A stretch of DNA of 20,473 bases from Escherichia coli (GTDB lineage Bacteria > Pseudomonadota > Gammaproteobacteria > Enterobacterales > Enterobacteriaceae). The position numbers were made by a program, and so were the translations under genes. The stretch lies in the NCBI RefSeq assembly GCF_003334315.1, contig NZ_QOWR01000068.1; one strand, written 5' to 3'. The notes below the pieces were generated by a model. The model was not told the DNA's origin. It did no database searches and saw only the letters and a program-made list of their open reading frames with translations. This document shows, piece by piece, positions 8,515 to 19,829 of this stretch (position 1 is its first letter; every line of letters starts with the position of its first letter).

Positions 8515-9276
8515 ATGTCGCTCGTTTGTTCTGTTATATTTATTCATCATGCCTTCAACGCTAACATTTTAGATAAAGATTACGCCTTCTCTGACGGCGA
8601 GATCCTGATGGTAGATAACGCTGTTCGTACGCATTTTGAACCTTATGAGCGGCATTTTAAAGAGATCGGATTTACTGAAAATACCATTAAAAAATATCTA
8701 CAATGCACTAACATCCAGACAGTGACGGTGCCTGTTCCTGCGAAGTTTTTACGTGCTTCAAATGTACCGACTGGATTGCTTAATGAAATGATTGCTTATC
8801 TCAACTCGGAAGAACGCAATCATCATAATTTTTCAGAACTTTTGCTTTTTTCTTGCCTGTCTATTTTTGCCGCATGCAAAGGTTTCATTACACTATTAAC
8901 TAACGGTGTGCTATCCGTTTCCGGAAAAGTGAGAAATATTGTCAACATGAAGCTGGCGCACCCATGGAAGCTGAAAGATATTTGTGACTGCCTGTACATC
9001 AGTGAAAGCCTGTTGAAGAAAAAACTAAAGCAAGAGCAAACGACATTCTCACAGATTCTATTAGATGCCAGAATGCAGCACGCAAAAAATTTGATACGCG
9101 TAGAAGGTTCAGTCAATAAAATTGCCGAACAATGTGGTTATGCCAGTACATCTTATTTTATTTATGCGTTCCGCAAACATTTCGGCAACAGTCCGAAGAG
9201 AGTTTCTAAGGAGTACCGTTGTCAAAGTCACACGGGTATGAATACGGGCAACACGATGAGTGCTTTAGCTATTTGA
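8515..9276 (+). CDS. ydeO: AraC/XylS-family acid-resistance regulator YdeO
   Basis: 253 aa with a C-terminal AraC dual HTH (WKLKDICDCLYISESLLKKKLKQEQTTFSQILLDARMQHAKNLI...IAEQCGYASTSYFIYAFRKHFGNSPKR). A strong SD (TAAGGAGATAAAATG) precedes the start. Confidence 0.95.
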   Translation: MSLVCSVIFIHHAFNANILDKDYAFSDGEILMVDNAVRTHFEPYERHFKEIGFTENTIKKYLQCTNIQTVTVPVPAKFLRASNVPTGLLNEMIAYLNSEERNHHNFSELLLFSCLSIFAACKGFITLLTNGVLSVSGKVRNIVNMKLAHPWKLKDICDCLYISESLLKKKLKQEQTTFSQILLDARMQHAKNLIRVEGSVNKIAEQCGYASTSYFIYAFRKHFGNSPKRVSKEYRCQSHTGMNTGNTMSALAI

Positions 9277-9324
9277 TTATTTGCTAACGAGTAGTCAACC
9301 ACGCACGCTACGTAAGAATTATAT

Positions 9325-9356
9325 GGGGCAGCCATTCCCTGCCCCGCGTTGTTTTT
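9325..9356 (+). terminator. intrinsic terminator after ydeO
   Basis: The stem GGGGCAG (9325-9331) with CTGCCCC (9339-9345) closes a 7-nt loop and is followed by GCGTTGTTTTT, with the T-run at 9352-9356. Confidence 0.65.
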
Positions 9357-9677
9357 AGGCGATATATTTATTGAAATAAATAAGTGACATCCATCACATA
9401 TTTATGCACTTGCATAACCTGTTGCATGATTATTTATGATCTCAATTCGGCATTTTGTCAGTAAAATGCAATAATTTATTAAATATCAATAAATTAGTTG
9501 TTTATCGGCGAGAAATTACTTAATAGAACAGAAAGTAATGTCAACGCTTTATGGACTGTTATTTCCCTTTTTTTAGCTAAATCTGCTATCTCTTTATGTG
9601 ACTAACTTCACTTACATCCACTTATTTCTCTTCGTAAAATTACTTCGGAATTAAGTACAATAAGAAGAGGAACATTT

Positions 9678-11360
9678 ATGAAGTCTGCATTAAAGAAAAG
9701 TGTCGTAAGTACCTCGATATCTTTGATACTGGCATCTGGTATGGCTGCATTTGCTGCTCATGCGGCAGATGATGTAAAGCTGAAAGCAACCAAAACAAAC
9801 GTTGCTTTCTCAGACTTTACGCCGACTGAATACAGTACCAAAGGAAAGCCAAATATTATCGTACTAACCATGGATGATCTTGGTTATGGACAACTTCCTT
9901 TTGATAAGGGATCTTTTGACCCAAAAACAATGGAAAATCGTGAAGTTGTCGATACCTACAAAATAGGGATAGATAAAGCCATTGAAGCTGCACAAAAATC
10001 AACGCCGACGCTCCTTTCATTAATGGATGAAGGCGTACGGTTTACTAACGGCTATGTGGCACACGGTGTTTCCGGCCCCTCCCGTGCCGCAATAATGACC
10101 GGTCGAGCTCCCGCCCGCTTTGGTGTCTATTCCAATACCGATGCTCAGGATGGTATTCCGCTAACAGAAACTTTCTTGCCTGAATTATTCCAGAATCATG
10201 GTTATTACACTGCAGCAGTAGGTAAATGGCACTTGTCAAAAATCAGTAATGTGCCGGTACCGGAAGATAAACAAACACGTGACTATCATGACAACTTCAC
10301 CACATTTTCTGCGGAAGAATGGCAACCTCAAAACCGTGGCTTTGATTACTTTATGGGATTCCACGCTGCAGGAACGGCATATTACAACTCCCCTTCACTG
10401 TTCCAAAATCGTGAACGTGTCCCCGCAAAAGGTTATATCAGCGATCAGTTAACCGATGAGGCAATTGGCGTTGTTGATCGTGCCAAAACACTTGACCAGC
10501 CTTTTATGCTTTACCTGGCTTATAATGCTCCGCACCTGCCAAATGATAATCCTGCACCGGAGCAATATCAGAAGCAATTTAATACCGGTAGTCAAACGGC
10601 AGATAACTACTACGCTTCCGTTTATTCTGTTGATCAGGGTGTAAAACGCATTCTCGAACAACTGAAGAAAAACGGACAGTATGACAATACAATTATTCTC
10701 TTTACCTCCGATAATGGTGCGGTTATCGATGGTCCTCTGCCGCTGAACGGGGCGCAAAAAGGCTATAAGAGTCAGACCTATCCTGGCGGTACTCACACCC
10801 CAATGTTTATGTGGTGGAAAGGAAAACTTCAACCCGGTAATTATGACAAGCTGATTTCCGCAATGGATTTCTACCCGACAGCTCTTGATGCAGCCGATAT
10901 CAGCATTCCAAAAGACCTTAAGCTGGATGGCGTTTCCTTGCTGCCCTGGTTGCAAGATAAGAAACAAGGCGAGCCACATAAAAATCTGACCTGGATAACC
11001 TCTTATTCTCACTGGTTTGATGAGGAAAATATTCCATTCTGGGATAATTACCACAAATTTGTCCGTCATCAGTCAGACGATTACCCGCATAACCCCAACA
11101 CTGAGGACTTAAGCCAATTCTCTTATACGGTGAGAAATAACGATTATTCGCTTGTCTATACAGTAGAAAACAATCAGTTAGGTCTCTACAAACTGACGGA
11201 TCTACAGCAAAAAGATAACCTTGCCGCCGCCAATCCGCAGGTCGTTAAAGAGATGCAAGGCGTGGTAAGAGAGTTTATCGACAGCAGCCAGCCACCGCTT
11301 AGCGAGGTAAATCAGGAGAAGTTTAACAATATCAAGAAAGCACTAAGCGAAGCGAAATAA
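9678..11360 (+). CDS. ydeN: periplasmic Ser-type sulfatase (type I sulfatase family)
   Basis: 560 aa with a signal peptide (…GMAAFAAHA|ADD). It carries the metal-binding motif IIVLTMDDLGYGQ and the sulfatase signature S-G-P-S-R-AAIMTGR (10071-10085), which has Ser rather than Cys at the formylglycine position. An AGAGGA SD is present. Confidence 0.95.
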   Translation: MKSALKKSVVSTSISLILASGMAAFAAHAADDVKLKATKTNVAFSDFTPTEYSTKGKPNIIVLTMDDLGYGQLPFDKGSFDPKTMENREVVDTYKIGIDKAIEAAQKSTPTLLSLMDEGVRFTNGYVAHGVSGPSRAAIMTGRAPARFGVYSNTDAQDGIPLTETFLPELFQNHGYYTAAVGKWHLSKISNVPVPEDKQTRDYHDNFTTFSAEEWQPQNRGFDYFMGFHAAGTAYYNSPSLFQNRERVPAKGYISDQLTDEAIGVVDRAKTLDQPFMLYLAYNAPHLPNDNPAPEQYQKQFNTGSQTADNYYASVYSVDQGVKRILEQLKKNGQYDNTIILFTSDNGAVIDGPLPLNGAQKGYKSQTYPGGTHTPMFMWWKGKLQPGNYDKLISAMDFYPTALDAADISIPKDLKLDGVSLLPWLQDKKQGEPHKNLTWITSYSHWFDEENIPFWDNYHKFVRHQSDDYPHNPNTEDLSQFSYTVRNNDYSLVYTVENNQLGLYKLTDLQQKDNLAAANPQVVKEMQGVVREFIDSSQPPLSEVNQEKFNNIKKALSEAK

Positions 11361-11411: not shown

Positions 11412-12569
11412 ATGCACGTTACAGCCAAGCCCTCCAGTTTTCAATGTAATCTCAAATGTGATTACTGTTTTTACCTTGAAAAAGAGTCGCAGTTTACTCA
11501 TGAAAAATGGATGGATGACAGCACTCTGAAAGAGTTCATCAAACAATATATCGCAGCGTCTGGCAATCAGGTCTATTTTACCTGGCAAGGCGGTGAACCC
11601 ACTCTGGCTGGCCTGGATTTTTTCCGTAAAGTTATTCACTATCAACAACGCTATGCAGGCCAAAAACGTATTTTTAATGCATTACAAACGAATGGCATTT
11701 TATTGAATAATGAATGGTGTGCCTTTCTCAAAGAACATGAATTTCTGGTTGGTATCTCGATCGATGGCCCCCAGGAGTTACATGACCGTTACAGACGCAG
11801 TAATTCAGGTAACGGTACTTTTGCAAAAGTGATAGCAGCCATCGAGCGTCTGAAATCATATCAAGTAGAGTTTAATACGTTAACCGTCATTAATAACGTT
11901 AATGTCCATTACCCTCTTGAGGTTTATCATTTTTTAAAATCTATCGGCAGTAAACATATGCAATTTATCGAATTGCTAGAAACCGGGACGCCGAATATTG
12001 ATTTCAGTGGTCATAGTGAGAACACATTCCGTATCATTGATTTTTCTGTGCCTCCCACGGCTTATGGCAAGTTTATGTCAACCATTTTTATGCAATGGGT
12101 TAAAAACGATGTGGGTGAAATTTTCATCCGTCAGTTTGAAAGCTTTGTCAGCCGTTTTTTGGGGAATGGGCATACCAGTTGTATTTTCCAGGAGTCCTGC
12201 AAGGATAATCTGGTTGTTGAAAGTAATGGAGACATTTACGAATGCGACCATTTTGTCTATCCACAGTACAAAATTGGAAACATTAATAAATCTGAACTCA
12301 AAACGATGAACAGTGTACAACTGACAGCGCAAAAAAAACGGATTCCAGCGAAATGTCAGCAATGTGCATATAAACCTATCTGCAATGGCGGTTGTCCTAA
12401 GCATCGTATTACTAAAGTAAACAATGAGACTGTTTCTTATTTTTGCGAAGGTTATAAAATCCTTTTTTCAACCATGGTACCTTATATGAACGCCATGGTA
12501 GAGTTAGCTAAGAACAGAGTACCGCTTTACCACATTATGGATGTTGCAAAACAAATGGAGAATAATTAA
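11412..12569 (+). CDS. ydeM: radical-SAM anaerobic sulfatase-maturating enzyme homologue (AtsB/anSME family, SPASM domain)
   Basis: I start the gene at ATG 11412 ([21 protein letters not shown], 385 aa) rather than the TTG at 11397 given by the ORF track. The radical-SAM motif CNLKCDYC lies at 11445-11468. A GGEP motif is present (WQGGEPTL). C-terminal auxiliary-cluster cysteines include CIFQESC...YECDHF and [17 protein letters not shown]. Confidence 0.9.
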
Positions 12570-12622
12570 TAACGCTCTCTTTTAACTCCATTCTTAGCCT
12601 CCTTCTTATGACCTTAACAAGG

Positions 12623-12651
12623 CACCCGACATAAATTCCTGTCGGGTGTTT
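12623..12651 (+). terminator. intrinsic terminator after ydeM
   Basis: The 9-bp stem CACCCGACA (12623-12631) with TGTCGGGTG (12640-12648) closes an 8-nt loop and is followed by TTTCG. Confidence 0.7.
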
Positions 12652-12819
12652 CGTCATCATCATCTTCCCTTGCGAAAATCCTGGCTTACGTGGTATGCAT
12701 CAGGGCATTAGCAATATCCTTGATTATCAATAGCATAACCATAACCACTGAAAATGAAATATTCCTTTATATTTCATATTGTTAAATGATACTTAAATAA
12801 ATTTCATCAGTAAATCATT

Positions 12820-12838
12820 GCCATAGATAATCATTGGA
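12820..12838 (+). promoter_or_regulatory. candidate Fur box upstream of yddA
   Basis: GCCATAGATAATCATTGGA matches 12 of 19 positions of GATAATGATAATCATTATC by my manual count, with a perfect central GATAATCATT. It lies 22 bp upstream of the yddA ATG. A second Fur-like core, TGATTATCAATAGC, sits at 12721-12734. Confidence 0.4.
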
Positions 12839-12859
12839 TGGCACAATCAATTTTCGCTA

Positions 12860-14545
12860 ATGATAACCATTCCCATTACGCTTCGTATGTTGATAGCAAA
12901 GTATCTCTGTCTGTTGAAGCCCTTTTGGCTGCGTAAGAATAATAAAACTTCAGTGTTGTTAATCATTATTATCCTCGCAATGATCCTTGGCGTGGTTAAA
13001 ATTCAGGTCTGGTTAAACGACTGGAATAATGATTTTTTCAATGCGCTAAGCCAGAAAGAAACCGATAAGCTTTGGCAGCTTGTCCTTTGGTTCCCTGCCC
13101 TGCTGGGGATCTTTGTATTAATATCCGTAAACAAAACATGGTTAATTAAACTGCTGACTATTCGCTGGCGCGAATGGTTAACAGATTACTACCTTAATCG
13201 GTGGTTTGCAGATAAAAACTACTACTTCACGCAGATCTACGGCGAGCATAAAAATACAGATAACCCTGACCAACGTATCGCTGAAGACATTCTCTTACTG
13301 ATCAGCAAAACGCTCAGTCTTTCATTTGGCTTCATCCAGTCACTTAGCATGCTGATCACCTTTACCGTTATTCTTTGGCAAAGCGCGGGTACGCTCTCAT
13401 TCACTGTTGGTGGAACAGAATGGAATATCCAGGGGTATATGGTCTATACCGTCGTGCTCATTGTGATCGGTGGAACTTTATTTACCCATAAGGTGGGTAA
13501 ACGTATTCGTCCGCTTAATGTGGAAAAACAACGTAGCGAAGCGACATTTCGAACAAATCTTGTGCAGCATAATAAGCAGGCAGAACTGATTGCGCTAAGC
13601 AATGCTGAGTCTCTACAACGCCAGGAGTTGAGCGACAATTTTCATACCATTAAAGAGAACTGGCATCGTTTAATGAATCGTCAGCGGTGGCTTGATTACT
13701 GGCAGAATATTTATTCGCGCTCGCTTAGCGTTCTTCCCTACTTTCTGTTATTGCCGCAGTTTATTAGCGGGCAGATCAATCTGGGCGGACTGATGAAATC
13801 GCGCCAGGCATTTATGCTGGTATCGAACAATTTAAGCTGGTTTATTTATAAATATGACGAACTTGCTGAACTGGCTGCGGTTATCGATCGCTTGTATGAG
13901 TTCCATCAACTCACTGAACAGCGCCCTACGAATAAGCCTAAAAATTACCAACATGCGGTACAAGTGGCTGATGCGAGTATTCGTACGCCTGATAATAAGA
14001 TCATATTAGAGAACCTGAACTTTCATGTTTCGCCAGGCAAATGGCTATTACTGAAAGGCTACTCTGGTGCGGGAAAAACCACACTGCTTAAAACATTATC
14101 CCACTGCTGGCCGTGGTTTAAAGGTGATATTTCTTCTCCTGCTGACAGTTGGTATGTGTCACAAACACCGTTAATCAAAACCGGCTTACTGAAAGAGATT
14201 ATTTGTAAAGCACTTCCCCTGCCCGTAGACGATAAATCGTTGAGCGAAGTACTGCATCAGGTTGGTCTTGGGAAATTGGCTGCGCGTATTCATGACCACG
14301 ATCGCTGGGGAGATATTCTTTCCAGCGGCGAAAAACAACGTATCGCCCTGGCACGATTAATTTTACGACGTCCGAAATGGATATTTCTTGACGAAACTAC
14401 CTCTCATCTTGAGGAACAAGAGGCTATCCGCTTACTGCGTTTAGTGCGTGAAAAACTACCCACAAGCGGCGTCATTATGGTTACACATCAACCCGGTGTC
14501 TGGAACCTGGCCGATGATATTTGTGACATTAGCGCGGTTTTATAA
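12860..14545 (+). CDS. yddA: fused permease/ATPase ABC transporter (SbmA/BacA-like transmembrane domain plus NBD)
   Basis: 561 aa. The N-terminal 330 aa or so are hydrophobic and multi-helix. The C-terminal NBD has Walker A GYSGAGKTT, the signature SSGEKQR and Walker B WIFLDETTS. Confidence 0.95.
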   Translation: MITIPITLRMLIAKYLCLLKPFWLRKNNKTSVLLIIIILAMILGVVKIQVWLNDWNNDFFNALSQKETDKLWQLVLWFPALLGIFVLISVNKTWLIKLLTIRWREWLTDYYLNRWFADKNYYFTQIYGEHKNTDNPDQRIAEDILLLISKTLSLSFGFIQSLSMLITFTVILWQSAGTLSFTVGGTEWNIQGYMVYTVVLIVIGGTLFTHKVGKRIRPLNVEKQRSEATFRTNLVQHNKQAELIALSNAESLQRQELSDNFHTIKENWHRLMNRQRWLDYWQNIYSRSLSVLPYFLLLPQFISGQINLGGLMKSRQAFMLVSNNLSWFIYKYDELAELAAVIDRLYEFHQLTEQRPTNKPKNYQHAVQVADASIRTPDNKIILENLNFHVSPGKWLLLKGYSGAGKTTLLKTLSHCWPWFKGDISSPADSWYVSQTPLIKTGLLKEIICKALPLPVDDKSLSEVLHQVGLGKLAARIHDHDRWGDILSSGEKQRIALARLILRRPKWIFLDETTSHLEEQEAIRLLRLVREKLPTSGVIMVTHQPGVWNLADDICDISAVL

Positions 14546-14582
14546 AAACAATAAAAGCCCTGCTGTACGGAGATATAAATAA

Positions 14583-16952
14583 ATGAAGCGAGTTCTTATT
14601 CCTGGCGTCATTTTATGTGGCGCTGATGTGGCGCAGGCCGTCGATGACAAAAACATGTACATGCATTTTTTTGAAGAGATGACGGTCTATGCTCCTGTCC
14701 CTGTACCCGTAAACGGCAACACGCATTACACCAGTGAAAGCATCGAGCGTTTACCGACCGGGAATGGCAATATCAGCGATCTGCTGAGAACCAACCCTGC
14801 GGTACGCATGGATTCAACGCAAAGTACCTCGTTGAACCGAGATATTCGCCCTGAGAAAATCTCTATTCACGGTGCGTCGCCCTACCAGAATGCCTATTTG
14901 ATTGACGGTATTAGTGCAACTAATAACCTGAACCCAGCGAATGAGTCCGATGCCAGTAGTGCAACCAATATTAGCGGGATGTCACAGGGGTATTATCTTG
15001 ATGTCAGCTTACTGGACAATGTGACGCTTTATGACAGTTTTGTGCCGGTTGAATTTGGTCGCTTCAATGGCGGGGTAATTGATGCAAAGATCAAACGCTT
15101 CAACGCTGATGATAGCAAGGTGAAATTGGGTTATCGCACTACGCGTTCGGACTGGTTAACATCGCATATCGATGAGAATAACAAGAGCGCATTTAATCAA
15201 GGCTCTTCAGGAAGTACTTATTACTCCCCAGATTTTAAAAAGAACTTTTATACCTTGTCGTTTAATCAGGAACTCGCTGATAACTTCGGCGTTACCGCCG
15301 GTTTATCGCGCCGCCAGTCTGATATCACCCGCGCGGATTATGTTTCGAATGACGGCATTGTCGCCGGTCGGGCACAGTATAAAAACGTTATCGATACTGC
15401 ATTAAGCAAATTTACCTGGTTTGCCAGCGACCGCTTTACCCACGATTTAACCTTAAAATATACCGGCTCCAGCCGTGATTATAATACCAGCACCTTCCCG
15501 CAGTCTGATCGCGAAATGGGTAATAAATCCTATGGTCTGGCATGGGATATGGATACGCAGCTCGCATGGGCCAAACTGCGTACCACCGTTGGTTGGGATC
15601 ATATTAGTGATTATACCCGTCACGATCATGACATCTGGTACACCGAACTTTCATGTACATATGGTGATATTACAGGGCGTTGCACCCGTGGCGGATTAGG
15701 ACACATTTCCCAGGCTGTAGATAATTACACCTTCAAAACACGCCTGGACTGGCAAAAATTCGCCGTGGGTAATGTTTCGCATCAACCCTACTTCGGCGCG
15801 GAATACATCTATTCCGATGCGTGGACTGAACGCCATAACCAGTCTGAATCCTATCTGATTAATGCTGCCGGAAAGAAAACTAACCATACCATTTACCATA
15901 AAGGTAAAGGCCGCCTGGGAATTGACAACTACACGCTGTATATGGCGGATCGCATTAGCTGGCGTAATGTGTCATTAATGCCCGGCGTGCGGTATGACTA
16001 TGACAACTATCTGTCAAACCACAATATCTCCCCGCGCTTTATGACGGAATGGGATATTTTTGCTAATCAAACCTCAATGATTACAGCAGGTTATAACCGT
16101 TACTATGGCGGGAATATTCTTGATATGGGATTACGTGATATCCGCAATAGCTGGACGGAATCGGTATCAGGTAATAAAACTCTGACGCGTTATCAGGATT
16201 TGAAAACGCCTTATAACGATGAACTGGCAATGGGATTGCAGCAGAAAATCGGTAAGAACGTTATTGCGCGTGCAAACTATGTTTACCGTGAAGCGCATGA
16301 TCAAATCAGCAAAAGCAGTCGTACCGACAGCGCGACTAAAACCACCATTACTGAATATAACAACGATGGCAAAACCAAAATGCATTCGTTCAGCCTCAGT
16401 TTTGAACTGGCCGAACCCCTGCATATCCGCCAGGTAGATATTAACCCACAAATTGTCTTTAGCTATATCAAGAGCAAGGGCAACTTGTCGTTAAACAATG
16501 GTTATGAGGAGAGCAATACCGGTGATAACCAGGTGGTTTATAACGGTAATCTGGTCTCTTACGATAGCGTTCCAGTGGCAGATTTTAATAACCCATTAAA
16601 GATCTCCTTAAACATGGATTTCACGCATCAACCGAGCGGGTTAGTGTGGGCGAATACGCTGGCCTGGCAAGAAGCGCGTAAAGCTCGCATTATCCTTGGT
16701 AAGACAAATGCGCAATACATCAGCGAATATTCAGATTACAAGCAGTATGTTGACGAAAAACTGGATAGCAGCCTGACCTGGGACACCCGCTTGTCCTGGA
16801 CGCCACAATTTCTGAAACAACAAAACCTGACGATCAGTGCCGATATTCTCAATGTACTGGATAGCAAAACCGCTGTTGATACAACGAACACCGGTGTGGC
16901 GACCTACGCCAGTGGCCGTACTTTCTGGCTTGATGTCAGCATGAAATTTTAA
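14583..16952 (+). CDS. yddB: TonB-dependent outer-membrane receptor
   Basis: 789 aa with a signal peptide (…ADVAQA|VDD) and a TonB-box-like EEMTVYAP (14673-14696). Plug-domain motifs are present (ISIHGASPYQNAYLIDGI). The protein is a long beta-barrel with aromatic-rich strands and ends in the OMP terminal motif WLDVSMKF. It starts 37 nt after yddA. Confidence 0.95.
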   Translation: MKRVLIPGVILCGADVAQAVDDKNMYMHFFEEMTVYAPVPVPVNGNTHYTSESIERLPTGNGNISDLLRTNPAVRMDSTQSTSLNRDIRPEKISIHGASPYQNAYLIDGISATNNLNPANESDASSATNISGMSQGYYLDVSLLDNVTLYDSFVPVEFGRFNGGVIDAKIKRFNADDSKVKLGYRTTRSDWLTSHIDENNKSAFNQGSSGSTYYSPDFKKNFYTLSFNQELADNFGVTAGLSRRQSDITRADYVSNDGIVAGRAQYKNVIDTALSKFTWFASDRFTHDLTLKYTGSSRDYNTSTFPQSDREMGNKSYGLAWDMDTQLAWAKLRTTVGWDHISDYTRHDHDIWYTELSCTYGDITGRCTRGGLGHISQAVDNYTFKTRLDWQKFAVGNVSHQPYFGAEYIYSDAWTERHNQSESYLINAAGKKTNHTIYHKGKGRLGIDNYTLYMADRISWRNVSLMPGVRYDYDNYLSNHNISPRFMTEWDIFANQTSMITAGYNRYYGGNILDMGLRDIRNSWTESVSGNKTLTRYQDLKTPYNDELAMGLQQKIGKNVIARANYVYREAHDQISKSSRTDSATKTTITEYNNDGKTKMHSFSLSFELAEPLHIRQVDINPQIVFSYIKSKGNLSLNNGYEESNTGDNQVVYNGNLVSYDSVPVADFNNPLKISLNMDFTHQPSGLVWANTLAWQEARKARIILGKTNAQYISEYSDYKQYVDEKLDSSLTWDTRLSWTPQFLKQQNLTISADILNVLDSKTAVDTTNTGVATYASGRTFWLDVSMKF

Positions 16953-16996
16953 TAGTTCGGATTTTACTTAACCGGGTAAATTCGCCCGGTTTTCGC

Positions 16997-19792
16997 ATGG
17001 AGATAATTATGAGAAACCTCTGTTTCTTACTGACGTTAGTGGCAACTCTGTTGCTCCCCGGGCGGCTGATTGCCGCCGCCTTACCGCAGGATGAAAAGTT
17101 AATTACCGGGCAACTGGACAATGGCTTGCGATATATGATTTATCCGCATGCTCATCCAAAGGATCAGGTAAATTTATGGCTGCAAATTCATACCGGTTCA
17201 TTGCAGGAAGAAGACAATGAGCGCGGCGTGGCTCATTTTGTAGAACATATGATGTTTAACGGCACAAAAACATGGCCGGGTAATAAAGTCATCGAAACAT
17301 TTGAGTCAATGGGCCTGCGTTTTGGTCGCGATGTTAATGCCTATACCAGCTATGACGAAACGGTGTATCAGGTGAGTTTGCCGACTACGCAGAAACAAAA
17401 TCTGCAACAAGTGATGGCAATCTTCAGTGAATGGAGTAATGCCGCCACCTTTGAAAAACTCGAAGTAGACGCTGAACGTGGCGTAATTACTGAGGAATGG
17501 CGTGCCCATCAGGATGCGAAATGGCGCACCTCTCAGGCGCGCCGCCCTTTCCTGCTGGCTAATACCCGTAATTTAGACCGTGAACCTATCGGCCTGATGG
17601 ATACTGTCGCCACGGTCACACCGGCACAATTGCGCCAATTTTATCAACGCTGGTATCAACCCAATAATATGACCTTTATCGTGGTCGGCGATATCGACAG
17701 TAAAGAAGCGCTGGCGCTGATAAAGGATAATTTAAGTAAGCTTCCGGCTAACAAAGCAGCTGAAAATCGCGTCTGGCCGACAAAAGCTGAAAATCACCTG
17801 CGCTTTAATATCATTAATGATAAAGAAAACCGGGTGAACGGCATCGCACTCTATTATCGCCTGCCAATGGTACAAGTGAACGATGAGCAAAGCTTTATCG
17901 AACAAGCTGAATGGAGCATGTTAGTTCAGCTGTTCAATCAACGTCTGCAGGAACGCATACAGTCGGGCGAGTTGAAGACTATTTCTGGCGGCACTGCGCG
18001 CAGCGTTAAAATTGCACCCGATTATCAGTCGCTGTTTTTCCGTGTAAATGCACGAGACGATAATATGCAGGATGCTGCGAATGCATTAATGGCAGAGTTG
18101 GCAACCATTGATCAGCATGGTTTTTCTGCTGAAGAACTCGATGATGTCAAATCTACCCGCCTCACCTGGCTGAAAAATGCGGTTGATCAGCAAGCTGAAC
18201 GTGATTTACGTATGCTGACCAGTCGCCTGGCATCCAGCTCATTAAATAATACGCCGTTCTTGTCGCCGGAAGAGACATATCAACTTTCGAAACGTCTGTG
18301 GCAGCAAATTACCGTGCAAAGTCTGGCGGAAAAATGGCAGCAGTTAAGAAAGAACCAGGACGCATTTTGGGAGCAAATGGTAAACAATGAGGTTGCCGCC
18401 AAAAAAGCATTGTCTCCTGCGGCTATCCTGGCGCTGGAAAAGGAGTACGCCAACAAAAAGCTGGCGGCTTACGTCTTCCCAGGCAGAAATTTATCGTTAA
18501 CAGTAGACGCAGACCCACAGGCGGAAATTAGCAGCAAAGAAACGCTGGCGGAGAATCTGACATCATTAACACTTTCCAATGGTGCCAGGGTTATTCTGGC
18601 AAAATCCGCGGGTGAAGAGCAAAAGCTACAAATTATTGCCGTATCGAATAAAGGCGATTTAAGTTTCCCTGCGCAGCAAAAATCACTTATCGCGCTGGCA
18701 AATAAAGCAGTTAGCGGAAGCGGCGTTGGCGAACTCTCCTCTTCCAGCCTGAAACGCTGGAGTGCGGAAAATTCGGTAACCATGAGCAGTAAAGTCAGTG
18801 GCATGAATACGTTGCTCTCCGTTAGCGCGCGGACTAATAACCCTGAACCTGGTTTTCAGTTGATTAACCAGCGAATCACCCACAGCACGATTAACGATAA
18901 TATTTGGGCATCGCTACAAAATGCTCAAATTCAGGCGTTGAAAACGCTCGACCAGCGTCCAGCGGAGAAATTCGCCCAGCAGATGTATGAGACGCGCTAT
19001 GCTGATGACCGCACGAAATTACTGCAAGAAAATCAGATTGCACAGTTTACTGCCGCAGATGCGCTGGCTGCCGATCGCCAATTGTTTTCATCTCCAGCGG
19101 ATATCACGTTTGTCATTGTCGGTAATGTCGCAGAAGACAAACTCGTGGCGTTAATTACGCGTTACTTAGGATCAATCAAACACTCTGATTCGCCATTAGC
19201 CGCAGGTAAACCATTAACTCGCGCGACGGACAACGCATCGGTTACTGTAAAAGAACAAAATGAACCTGTGGCACAGGTTTCACAGTGGAAGCGTTATGAT
19301 TCCCGGACACCTGTTAATCTGCCGACGCGTATGGCGCTCGATGCTTTTAACGTCGCACTGGCAAAAGATCTACGCGTTAATATTCGTGAACAGGCATCTG
19401 GGGCATACAGCGTTTCTTCTCGCCTCTCGGTTGATCCTCAGGCCAAAGATATCAGTCATTTGCTGGCTTTTACTTGTCAACCAGAACGACATGATGAACT
19501 GTTAACGTTAGCGAATGAAGTGATGGTTAAGCGTCTGGCTAAAGGGATCAGTGAGCAAGAACTGAATGAATACCAGCAAAACGTTCAGCGCAGCCTCGAT
19601 ATCCAACAGCGTAGCGTTCAACAATTAGCGAACACCATTGTAAATAGTCTTATTCAATATGACGATCCTGCAGCATGGACTGAGCAGGAGCAATTGTTGA
19701 AACAAATGACGGTAGAGAATGTTAACACTGCCGTTAAACAATATCTTTCTCATCCGGTAAATACTTATACCGGAGTATTATTGCCAAAATAA
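16997..19792 (+). CDS. pqqL: periplasmic M16-family (pitrilysin-like) zinc metallopeptidase, tandem M16 modules
   Basis: 931 aa with the inverted zinc motif HFVEH at 17234-17248 (GVAHFVEHMMFNGT) and a signal peptide (…LLLPGRLIAA|ALPQ). ATG 17009 (MRNLCF…) is an alternative start with a GGAG 6 nt upstream. Confidence 0.93.
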   Translation: MEIIMRNLCFLLTLVATLLLPGRLIAAALPQDEKLITGQLDNGLRYMIYPHAHPKDQVNLWLQIHTGSLQEEDNERGVAHFVEHMMFNGTKTWPGNKVIETFESMGLRFGRDVNAYTSYDETVYQVSLPTTQKQNLQQVMAIFSEWSNAATFEKLEVDAERGVITEEWRAHQDAKWRTSQARRPFLLANTRNLDREPIGLMDTVATVTPAQLRQFYQRWYQPNNMTFIVVGDIDSKEALALIKDNLSKLPANKAAENRVWPTKAENHLRFNIINDKENRVNGIALYYRLPMVQVNDEQSFIEQAEWSMLVQLFNQRLQERIQSGELKTISGGTARSVKIAPDYQSLFFRVNARDDNMQDAANALMAELATIDQHGFSAEELDDVKSTRLTWLKNAVDQQAERDLRMLTSRLASSSLNNTPFLSPEETYQLSKRLWQQITVQSLAEKWQQLRKNQDAFWEQMVNNEVAAKKALSPAAILALEKEYANKKLAAYVFPGRNLSLTVDADPQAEISSKETLAENLTSLTLSNGARVILAKSAGEEQKLQIIAVSNKGDLSFPAQQKSLIALANKAVSGSGVGELSSSSLKRWSAENSVTMSSKVSGMNTLLSVSARTNNPEPGFQLINQRITHSTINDNIWASLQNAQIQALKTLDQRPAEKFAQQMYETRYADDRTKLLQENQIAQFTAADALAADRQLFSSPADITFVIVGNVAEDKLVALITRYLGSIKHSDSPLAAGKPLTRATDNASVTVKEQNEPVAQVSQWKRYDSRTPVNLPTRMALDAFNVALAKDLRVNIREQASGAYSVSSRLSVDPQAKDISHLLAFTCQPERHDELLTLANEVMVKRLAKGISEQELNEYQQNVQRSLDIQQRSVQQLANTIVNSLIQYDDPAAWTEQEQLLKQMTVENVNTAVKQYLSHPVNTYTGVLLPK

Positions 19793-19798
19793 TAACAG

Positions 19799-19829
19799 CC
19801 CCGTCAACACATCGTTGGCGGGGATTTTA
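19799..19829 (+). terminator. intrinsic terminator after pqqL
   Basis: The 10-bp stem CCCCGTCAAC (19799-19808) with GTTGGCGGGG (19814-19823) has one G-U pair, closes a 5-nt loop and is followed by ATTTTA. Confidence 0.8.

What the first reader, a model, noticed from the sequence alone, without database searches (positions are those of the whole stretch)
12860..19792. Three-compartment import module: TonB-dependent receptor, periplasmic M16 protease and a binding-protein-less ABC transporter
Three tightly spaced co-oriented genes (gaps of 37 and 44 nt) have no strong terminator until 19799. YddB has a TonB box (EEMTVYAP), a plug and a barrel ending in Phe. PqqL is a secreted tandem M16 protease with an intact HFVEH zinc site. 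YddA is a half-size fused ABC protein whose membrane domain is of the SbmA/BacA type. As I recall, M16 protease and TonB-dependent receptor pairs (FusA/FusC in Pectobacterium, YddB/PqqL in E. coli) have been proposed as protease-associated import systems that take up an iron-containing protein and digest it in the periplasm. The natural substrate in E. coli remains open. So does the role of YddA. No periplasmic binding protein is encoded, so YddA may be an exporter-fold importer (like Rv1819c, IrtAB or YbtPQ) that carries released cofactor or peptides across the inner membrane. That last point is inference.
Basis: partly seen in the sequence, partly recalled or inferred. Interest (0 to 1): 0.55.

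Follow-up and report, generated by a model that had tools for sequence, protein, structure and literature searches.

The report
Known E. coli yddA-yddB-pqqL import operon
This is the already published, iron-regulated E. coli yddA-yddB-pqqL operon: an outer-membrane receptor, a periplasmic protease and an inner-membrane ABC transporter thought to import and digest a still-unknown small protein. The reading is correct but ordinary.

Summary
Window 12860-19792 carries three intact co-oriented genes: yddA (561 aa, SbmA/BacA-type membrane domain fused to an ABC ATPase), yddB (789 aa TonB-dependent receptor, PDB 6OFR) and pqqL (tandem M16 protease with HFVEH, PDB 6OFS). Hairpins lie at 12620-12651 and 19799-19823, and the best Fur-box match in the whole window sits on the yddA start codon.

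Grinter 2016 called yddA a FusD homologue in the same operon and proposed import of the released cofactor. Grinter 2019 solved YddB and PqqL and named protease-associated import systems. Subashchandrabose 2013 showed co-transcription and Fur control. A 2026 paper places YddA with Rv1819c and SbmA.

My additions:
- YddA aligns over its full length with Rv1819c (E 2e-67) and has intact ATPase motifs.
- YddA-type ABC, YddB-type receptor and tandem M16 genes are adjacent in at least eight unrelated genomic contexts and four gene arrangements. Generic tandem M16 loci (75 controls) have no YddA-type neighbour.
- About 15% of complete E. coli genomes have deleted the operon.
- This window's yddB has a private 3-nt deletion that removes an invariant plug glycine.

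The substrate and the cargo of YddA remain unknown. Novelty: already known.

The parts
12620..12651 (+). Stem-loop between ydeM and yddA. It is the likely terminator of the upstream ydeNM unit and the left boundary of the operon.
   Evidence: 12-bp stem; the 101-nt stretch 12565-12665 folds at -21.1 kcal/mol, z -3.9, 0 of 200 shuffles as good; followed by UUUCGUC.
12818..12847 (+). Sigma-70-like promoter match (TTGCCA, 18 nt, TG-CACAAT) just upstream of yddA. A GATAATCATT Fur half-site lies in its spacer.
   Evidence: 9 of 12 matches, with TG before the second hexamer; sequence. This is a consensus match only; the transcription start is not mapped here.
12856..12874 (.). Fur box overlapping the yddA start codon.
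   Evidence: 15 of 19 matches to GATAATGATAATCATTATC, the best of all positions on both strands of the 20.5-kb window. It is the same site as the published GGGAATGGTTATCATTAG (PMC3855560). The second-best site is at 12958-12976.
12860..14545 (+). yddA: half-size fused ABC transporter with an SbmA/BacA / ABC_membrane_2 membrane domain and a nucleotide-binding domain. It is the FusD homologue.
   Evidence: Pfam. Rv1819c 6TQE, E 2e-67 over aa 34-552. ATPase residues S402, G403, G405, K406, T408; S488, G490, E491, Q493, R494; D511, E512; and H543 are invariant in 35 homologues; 37% identical to Dickeya FusD.
14583..16952 (+). yddB: FusA-family TonB-dependent outer-membrane transporter.
   Evidence: PDB 6OFR; FusA 4ZGV 3e-78. 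(Plug domain, aa 48-161). (ends in Phe).
14673..14696 (+). TonB box of YddB (EEMTVYAP, aa 31-38).
   Evidence: the motif aligns with a conserved [DE]-x-[IMTV]-[IMLV]-x-V-x-[AS] stretch in eight of the nine homologues, including Dickeya FusA. The Pseudomonas sequence has an insertion there.
14835..14837 (+). Site of a private in-frame 3-nt deletion in yddB: common allele LNQGDIRP, window allele LNRDIRP.
   Evidence: difference from the common allele; none of 4,616 E. coli records matches 14790-14880 at 99% or better; the lost Gly is invariant in the nine other YddB/FusA sequences aligned.
16970..16991 (+). Weak hairpin in the yddB-pqqL spacer. It is not a convincing terminator.
   Evidence: 8-bp stem, centroid -12.8 kcal/mol; the whole spacer has z -0.9. 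RT-PCR spans this junction.
16997..19792 (+). pqqL: periplasmic tandem M16 zinc protease and FusC homologue. The likely true start is 17009.
   Evidence: PDB 6OFS/6OFT. (Pfam). (Shine-Dalgarno before 17009). (RefSeq start). (periplasmic, signal peptide cleaved, active on peptides).
17234..17248 (+). HFVEH inverted zinc-binding motif (aa 80-84).
   Evidence: H80, F81, V82, E83, H84, E160, E166 and E167 are invariant in 11 PqqL-clade sequences.
19799..19823 (+). Intrinsic terminator of the operon.
   Evidence: -18.6 kcal/mol, z -4.6, followed by AUUUUA.

Best explanation
This is the chromosomal E. coli yddA-yddB-pqqL operon, a Fur-repressed protease-associated import system of the Fus type.

Shown by sequence or by published experiments:
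- It is one transcription unit bounded by hairpins, with a Fur box on the yddA start codon.
- YddB is a 22-strand TonB-dependent barrel with a pocket of about 28 A, big enough for a small globular protein.
- PqqL is an active periplasmic zinc clamshell protease.
- YddA is a half-transporter (presumably a homodimer) of the Rv1819c/BclA/ABCD type with a complete ATPase site.

Inferred mechanism: under iron limitation, YddB uses the cell's general TonB (the operon has no dedicated FusB) to pull a small, probably metal-cofactor-bearing protein into the periplasm. PqqL captures and cuts it. YddA, which needs no binding protein, uses ATP to carry the released hydrophilic cargo (cofactor, cofactor-peptide or peptides) into the cytoplasm.

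The substrate protein and the YddA cargo are unknown.
For: Identity:
- 100% DNA match to E. coli chromosomes annotated yddA/yddB/pqqL.
- PDB 6OFR and 6OFS.

Regulation and operon structure:
- The best Fur-consensus match of the whole window lies on the yddA ATG.
- Published results: Fur derepression, more than 30-fold induction in urine, and RT-PCR across both junctions.
- PqqL is induced by bipyridyl, is periplasmic, and cleaves F/Y-F/Y-V/A peptides.
- Boundary hairpins.

YddA as an importer:
- Full-length homology to the importer Rv1819c (E 2e-67), then to ABCD1/ABCD4.
- Intact ATPase motifs.
- B. cepacia YddA is required for ubonodin entry.
- The SbmA lineage derives from a YddA-like ancestor.

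Functional linkage of the three genes:
- They are adjacent, with entirely different flanks, in an Enterobacteriaceae MAG, a plasmid-like contig, L005, Orbaceae, L090 (order A-B-L), Gilliamella (B-A-L), Dickeya (TonB-B-L-A) and Pseudomonas (FecI-FecR-B-L-A).
- None of 75 loci with a generic tandem M16 protease has a YddA-type neighbour.
- Grinter 2016 reached the same conclusion.
Against: - No substrate is known. PqqL did not cut human or plant ferredoxins or globins.
- The yddB and pqqL deletions grow normally in iron-limited LB, even without the other iron TBDTs.
- In CFT073, iron level alone did not change transcription.
- No transport experiment exists for E. coli YddA or for FusD.
- I found no conserved Cys and no import-system-specific Cys/His in the YddA membrane domain that would mark an Fe-S or metal site.
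- About 15% of complete E. coli genomes have deleted the operon, so it is dispensable in many lineages.
Confidence: 0.7

Rival explanations
1. The system imports a peptide or small protein as such, for example a host or microbial cysteine-rich or antimicrobial peptide, a RiPP-like molecule, or a nutrient peptide. Iron is only the regulatory cue. PqqL trims the cargo and YddA imports the fragments, as BacA/BclA/SbmA do with peptides.
For: - The characterised relatives of YddA carry peptides, bleomycin or B12 rather than iron (JGI names).
- The YddA membrane domain has no metal-ligand signature.
- PqqL has a narrow peptide specificity and does not cut ferredoxins or globins.
- There is no iron-limitation growth phenotype.
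- E. coli pqqL complements PQQ peptide-processing mutants (cited).
Against: - Fur control and a Fur box on the start codon.
- The characterised homologous system, Fus, is an iron-piracy system.
- The YddB pocket is sized for a folded protein of about 28 A.
Confidence: 0.2
2. YddA is an exporter that is merely co-expressed. It might secrete a small molecule or peptide, or clear PqqL products from the membrane. The released iron would enter through the general Fe transporters (Feo, Fep, Fhu).
For: - YddA has the type IV 'exporter' fold, and many ABCD and ABCB relatives move substrates away from the ATPase side.
- No direct transport data exist.
Against: - Its closest solved relative, Rv1819c, and the genetically tested homologues (B. 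cepacia YddA, BclA) are importers.
- The gene stays glued to the receptor-protease pair through four different gene arrangements and unrelated flanks. That is hard to explain for an unrelated exporter.
Confidence: 0.07
3. In this particular strain the operon is a decaying or non-functional copy. The private yddB deletion disables the plug, in line with frequent loss of the locus in the species.
For: - The 3-nt deletion removes a glycine that is invariant from E. coli to Dickeya FusA and Pseudomonas, and it is absent from 4,616 other E. coli records.
- About 811 of 5,426 genomes lack yddB, and others carry IS insertions.
Against: - All three reading frames are intact and the change is in frame.
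- The effect of the change on the plug is untested.
- It could also be a sequencing or assembly error.
Confidence: 0.15

Closest known systems
Pectobacterium/Dickeya ferredoxin uptake system FusB-FusA-FusC-FusD
   Same: - A FusA-family TBDT (4ZGV is the only other solved relative of YddB, 3e-78).
- A single-chain tandem M16 periplasmic protease (FusC, 1.6e-58 to 6.6e-57).
- A fused ABC transporter of the same family (Dickeya FusD is 37% identical over 98% of YddA).
- Iron regulation.

   Different: - E. coli has no dedicated TonB homologue (FusB).
- The gene order is A-B-L rather than B(TonB)-A-C-D.
- PqqL does not cleave plant ferredoxin, and the substrate is unknown.
Mycobacterium tuberculosis Rv1819c (BacA) and rhizobial BclA: type IV ABC importers of hydrophilic cargo
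   Same: - Full-length sequence homology (E 2e-67, aa 34-552).
- ABC_membrane_2 / SbmA_BacA membrane domain fused to a nucleotide-binding domain.
- No binding protein.

   Different: - Rv1819c and BclA are stand-alone genes, as is the Ferrovibrio homologue (34% identity).
- YddA and FusD belong to sequence clusters whose sampled members are all embedded in receptor-protease modules.
- Rv1819c has an N-terminal extension of about 35 residues (its residue 71 aligns with YddA residue 34).
E. coli SbmA / Sinorhizobium BacA (SLiPT proton-driven peptide importers)
   Same: Homologous membrane domain (Pfam SbmA_BacA, 5e-34). Published phylogeny derives SbmA from a YddA-like ancestor.
   Different: SbmA has no ATPase domain and uses a glutamate ladder. 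YddA keeps the ATPase domain and only part of the ladder.
IrtAB and YbtPQ siderophore importers with an exporter fold
   Same: The idea is the same: a type IV 'exporter' fold working inwards without a binding protein.
   Different: These are a different family (classical ABC_membrane PF00664). Neither is among the 60 best PDB matches of YddA, where only Rv1819c and ABCD proteins align through the membrane domain. This is analogy, not homology beyond the ATPase domain.

Membership tests
Protease-associated import system (Fus-like; Grinter 2016/2019) | FusA-family TonB-dependent transporter with plug, TonB box and 22-strand barrel | tested here: met
   (6OFR at E 0; FusA 4ZGV 3e-78). (Plug). (TonB box conserved in eight of nine homologues).
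Protease-associated import system (Fus-like; Grinter 2016/2019) | Adjacent secreted single-chain tandem M16 protease with intact HxxEH...E | tested here: met
   (H80, E83, H84, E160, E167 invariant). Periplasmic location and activity come (literature).
Protease-associated import system (Fus-like; Grinter 2016/2019) | Genetic linkage of receptor and protease kept across taxa | tested here: met
   at least eight contexts and four gene arrangements. Control.
Protease-associated import system (Fus-like; Grinter 2016/2019) | Iron/Fur regulation | tested here: met
   The best Fur-box match of the window lies on the yddA ATG. Iron level alone had no effect in CFT073.
Protease-associated import system (Fus-like; Grinter 2016/2019) | Demonstrated import and cleavage of a protein substrate | not testable with these tools
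   The literature reports no substrate for YddB/PqqL.
Fus operon proper (fusBACD) | Dedicated TonB homologue FusB in the cluster | tested here: not met
   There is no further + strand ORF of 80 aa or more in 12860-19792 apart from one nested in pqqL (19260-19505). Dickeya has a TonB_C gene upstream of fusA.
YddA/BclA/Rv1819c type IV ABC importers | ABC_membrane_2 / SbmA_BacA membrane domain fused to a nucleotide-binding domain, as a half-transporter | tested here: met
YddA/BclA/Rv1819c type IV ABC importers | Catalytically complete ATPase motifs | tested here: met
   GYSGAGKTT, LSSGEKQR, IFLDE and THQ. These residues are invariant in 35 homologues.
YddA/BclA/Rv1819c type IV ABC importers | Inward transport of hydrophilic cargo without a binding protein | not testable with these tools
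   The operon has no binding-protein gene. The direction is inferred from Rv1819c and B. cepacia YddA.

The most novel reading that the evidence does not exclude
The YddA/FusD transporters sampled here fall into sequence clusters, 37% or more identical to YddA, in which every member with a checked genomic context sits in a receptor-protease module. They may carry PqqL/FusC cleavage products (cofactor-bearing peptides) rather than a naked Fe-S cluster or iron. That would make the trio a complete three-step pipeline bringing a foreign protein's pieces into the cytoplasm. The absence of any conserved Cys/His site in the membrane domain and the peptide/B12/bleomycin range of the relatives fit this reading. 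Nothing here proves it.
Probability: 0.3. Interest if true: 0.5.

Novelty: already known. Interest (0 to 1): 0.2.

Why it matters
The operon is a validated fitness factor of uropathogenic E. coli in bloodstream infection. It is also the E. coli representative of a widespread class of systems believed to import whole proteins through the outer membrane. Its substrate and the job of its inner-membrane transporter are real open questions. The finding, however, restates the published model and does not make those questions more testable.

Two of my additions may be of practical use:
- The transporter-receptor-protease trio travels as a unit through different arrangements and contexts.
- About 15% of sequenced E. 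coli, including human urine and sputum isolates, have cleanly deleted it. This tempers its value as a vaccine or drug target.

Tried and rejected
- A strict Fur-consensus search with up to 3 mismatches found nothing. Position-by-position scoring was needed.
- The genome-contig scan with a PqqL-clade alignment picked active-site patterns. It mostly returned generic tandem M16 proteases at 24-29% identity, not FusC relatives. I used these as a negative control.
- GTDB 'E. coli' representatives L008 and L010 looked like pseudogenised operons. Their multi-frame, low-identity matches across all genes look like error-rich assemblies, so I did not count them.
- Plasmid-borne copies in E. coli turned out to be mislabelled chromosomes, chromosome fragments, or a 360-bp yddA fragment next to IS elements. 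This gives no evidence of a mobile E. coli copy.
- A look-up of the Ochrobactrum homologue P0217 found no record.
- A search for import-system-specific Cys/His ligands in the YddA membrane domain found none.
- I did not run structure prediction. Both soluble and outer-membrane proteins are solved, and YddA has a full-length solved homologue.


Full report
**What is there**

The window is E. coli chromosome. Region 12000-20473 matches many complete genomes at about 100% identity, annotated ydeM, yddA, yddB, pqqL, gadB.

- YddA matches Pfam ABC_membrane_2, SbmA_BacA and ABC_tran.
- YddB matches only the Plug domain.
- PqqL matches Peptidase_M16 and two stretches of Peptidase_M16_C.
- The translations contain EEMTVYAP (YddB aa 31-38), a C-terminal Phe, and HFVEH (PqqL aa 80-84).
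- YddB is PDB 6OFR, and its only other solved relative is the ferredoxin receptor FusA (4ZGV, 3e-78).
- PqqL is 6OFS/6OFT, followed by 9LDY and FusC (6B03/6B05/6BRS).

**Transcription unit**

- A strong hairpin lies between ydeM and yddA at 12620-12651. The 101-nt stretch around it folds at -21.1 kcal/mol, z -3.9.
- A second strong hairpin follows pqqL at 19799-19823 (-18.6 kcal/mol, z -4.6, then AUUUUA).
- Inside the operon there is only a weak hairpin in the yddB-pqqL spacer, and it does not beat shuffled sequence. The yddA-yddB spacer is unstructured.
- I scored every position of the window against the 19-bp Fur consensus. The single best site (15/19) is at 12856-12874, on the yddA start codon, and the second best is at 12958-12976. 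The first is the published putative Fur box.
- A sigma-70-like match with an extended -10 lies at 12818-12847.
- The ATG at 17009 has a GGAG 6 nt upstream and the ATG at 16997 has none. RefSeq uses 17009. The second gap is therefore more likely 56 nt than 44 nt.

**What is already published**

- Subashchandrabose 2013 (PMC3855560):
  - RT-PCR showed co-transcription of yddA-yddB-pqqL.
  - Expression rose more than 30-fold in urine and was derepressed in a fur mutant.
  - yddB and pqqL mutants lost fitness in mouse bacteraemia.
- Grinter 2016 (PMC5095587):
  - The operon 'also contains yddA, a FusD homologue'.
  - Gene order varies among taxa while the cluster is kept.
  - FusD would import the released Fe-S cluster.
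- Grinter 2019 (PMC6793856):
  - The structures of YddB and PqqL were solved.
  - PqqL is periplasmic, induced by iron chelation, and active on F/Y-F/Y-V/A peptides.
  - PqqL is inactive on ferredoxins and globins.
  - The yddB and pqqL deletions showed no growth defect in iron-limited LB.
  - The paper coined the term protease-associated import systems.
- A 2026 paper (PMC13316013) classes YddA as a type IV ABC transporter of unknown function. It names Rv1819c as the closest structure and places YddA as ancestral to SbmA.
- A 2022 preprint shows that B. cepacia YddA is required for entry of a lasso peptide.
- A December 2025 review still lists the PqqL substrate as n/a.

**What I could add**

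1. YddA aligns over aa 34-552 with Rv1819c (6TQE, E 2e-67), then with ABCD1 and ABCD4. All other PDB matches in the top 60 cover only the ATPase domain. The link to Rv1819c is thus homology, whereas the link to IrtAB and YbtPQ is analogy. The ATPase motif residues are invariant in 35 homologues.

2. Co-conservation. PqqL relatives at 39-47% identity and YddA relatives at 37-58% identity always lie in a trio of YddA-type ABC, Plug-only TBDT and tandem M16 protease, while the flanks differ completely.
   - Enterobacteriaceae MAG (speE/tyrA ... pdxJ).
   - A plasmid-like contig (ParB, Rep3, integrase, IS21 fragment).
   - L005 (holB/pyrF ...).
   - Orbaceae (... asnA).
   - L090.
   - All five of the above have the order A-B-L.
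   - Gilliamella has the order B-A-L.
   - Dickeya has TonB-B-L-A.
   - Pseudomonas yangonensis has FecI-FecR-B-L-A.
   - A 34%-identical Ferrovibrio homologue stands alone.
   - Among 75 loci holding a generic tandem M16 protease (24-29% identity), none has a YddA-type neighbour and three have a weak YddB-like TBDT.

3. The YddA membrane domain has no conserved Cys, and no Cys/His specific to members linked to import systems. This gives no support for a dedicated Fe-S or metal site. It fits a roomy, low-specificity cavity like that of Rv1819c. This is weak evidence, because the 'stand-alone' set was context-checked for only one member.

**Population view**

- Of 5,426 complete E. coli genomes, 5,406 retain some part of the operon, but only 4,604 retain 80% or more.
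- A 91-nt piece of yddB is missing from 811 genomes.
- The partial genomes sampled keep only the last 0.9-1.2 kb of pqqL, joined directly to the end of ydeM.
- There are at least two different junctions. EC32 (urine) loses yneP as well, and 23AR0151 (sputum) keeps it.
- Other genomes carry IS903B or IS5 insertions. Chimaeric gene calls fusing pqqL or yddA to ydeP, ydeO, ydeM or gadC appear in the protein database.
- The operon is therefore dispensable and repeatedly lost.

**A private allele in this window**

yddB lacks 3 nt at codons 85-86 (common allele LNQGDIRP, here LNRDIRP). No record among 4,616 matches that stretch at 99% or better. The lost glycine is invariant in the nine other YddB/FusA sequences aligned, from E. 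coli to Dickeya and Pseudomonas. Whether this is a real hypomorphic allele or a sequence error cannot be settled here.

**Verdict**

The most likely mechanism is the published three-compartment model: TonB-driven protein uptake by YddB, cleavage by PqqL, and ATP-driven import of the product by YddA. Gene identity is essentially certain. The transport steps and the cargo are inferred. Interest is low, because a specialist would not be surprised and the open question (the substrate) is not made more testable.

Noticed in passing
window 14835-14837 (yddB codons 85-86): There is a private in-frame 3-nt deletion: common allele LNQGDIRP, window allele LNRDIRP. It is absent from all 4,616 matching E. 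coli genome records. It removes a plug-domain glycine that is invariant in the nine other YddB/FusA sequences aligned. It could be a hypomorphic allele or a sequence error.
   Followed up: partly
L094 (NZ_CP085619.1) 8994-9917; L095 (NZ_CP195448.1) 8895-10163; equivalent to window ~12570-18630/18876: About 15% of complete E. coli genomes (811 of 5,426 lack the yddB probe) have a clean deletion from just after ydeM into pqqL. It removes the promoter, yddA, yddB and about two thirds of pqqL. At least two different junctions exist, in human urine and sputum isolates. The lineages were not determined.
   Followed up: partly
window 16997 vs 17009: The pqqL start is more likely the ATG at 17009 (GGAG 6 nt upstream; RefSeq choice) than the first ATG at 16997, which UniProt and PDB numbering use.
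   Followed up: yes
L004 1-5400 (Logan ERR12378274 contig): A yddA-yddB-pqqL trio (PqqL 47% identical) lies next to ParB, a ParA-like ATPase, Rep3, a phage-type integrase and an IS21 fragment. This suggests a plasmid-borne copy in an unidentified host.
   Followed up: no
L041 and L085 (Deferribacteraceae / Mucispirillaceae MAGs), L026 (Spirochaetota MAG): These loci hold a generic tandem M16 protease, and within 10 kb a weak YddB-like TBDT (146-163 bits). In L041 and L085 there is also an ABC protein scoring 56-62 bits against YddA. They may be distant protease-associated import systems outside the Proteobacteria.
   Followed up: no
window 12535-12657 (- strand) and 12620-12651: The small annotated ORF yneP overlaps the end of ydeM. 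It contains the strong hairpin that separates ydeNM from the yddA promoter.
   Followed up: no
PLSDB hits H58-H61 (e.g. NZ_CP046008.1 24414-24773): Several E. coli plasmids carry just the first 360 bp of yddA, in one case next to an ISVsa5 transposase. This is probably a chromosomal fragment captured by IS activity.
   Followed up: no
window 12860-12890 (yddA N-terminus): There is no Shine-Dalgarno sequence before the annotated yddA ATG. The first ten or so residues sampled (M1, M10) fall in alignment columns that are gaps in most homologues. The promoter-like -10 ends only 12 nt upstream, so the transcript may be nearly leaderless or the start may be mis-set.
   Followed up: no
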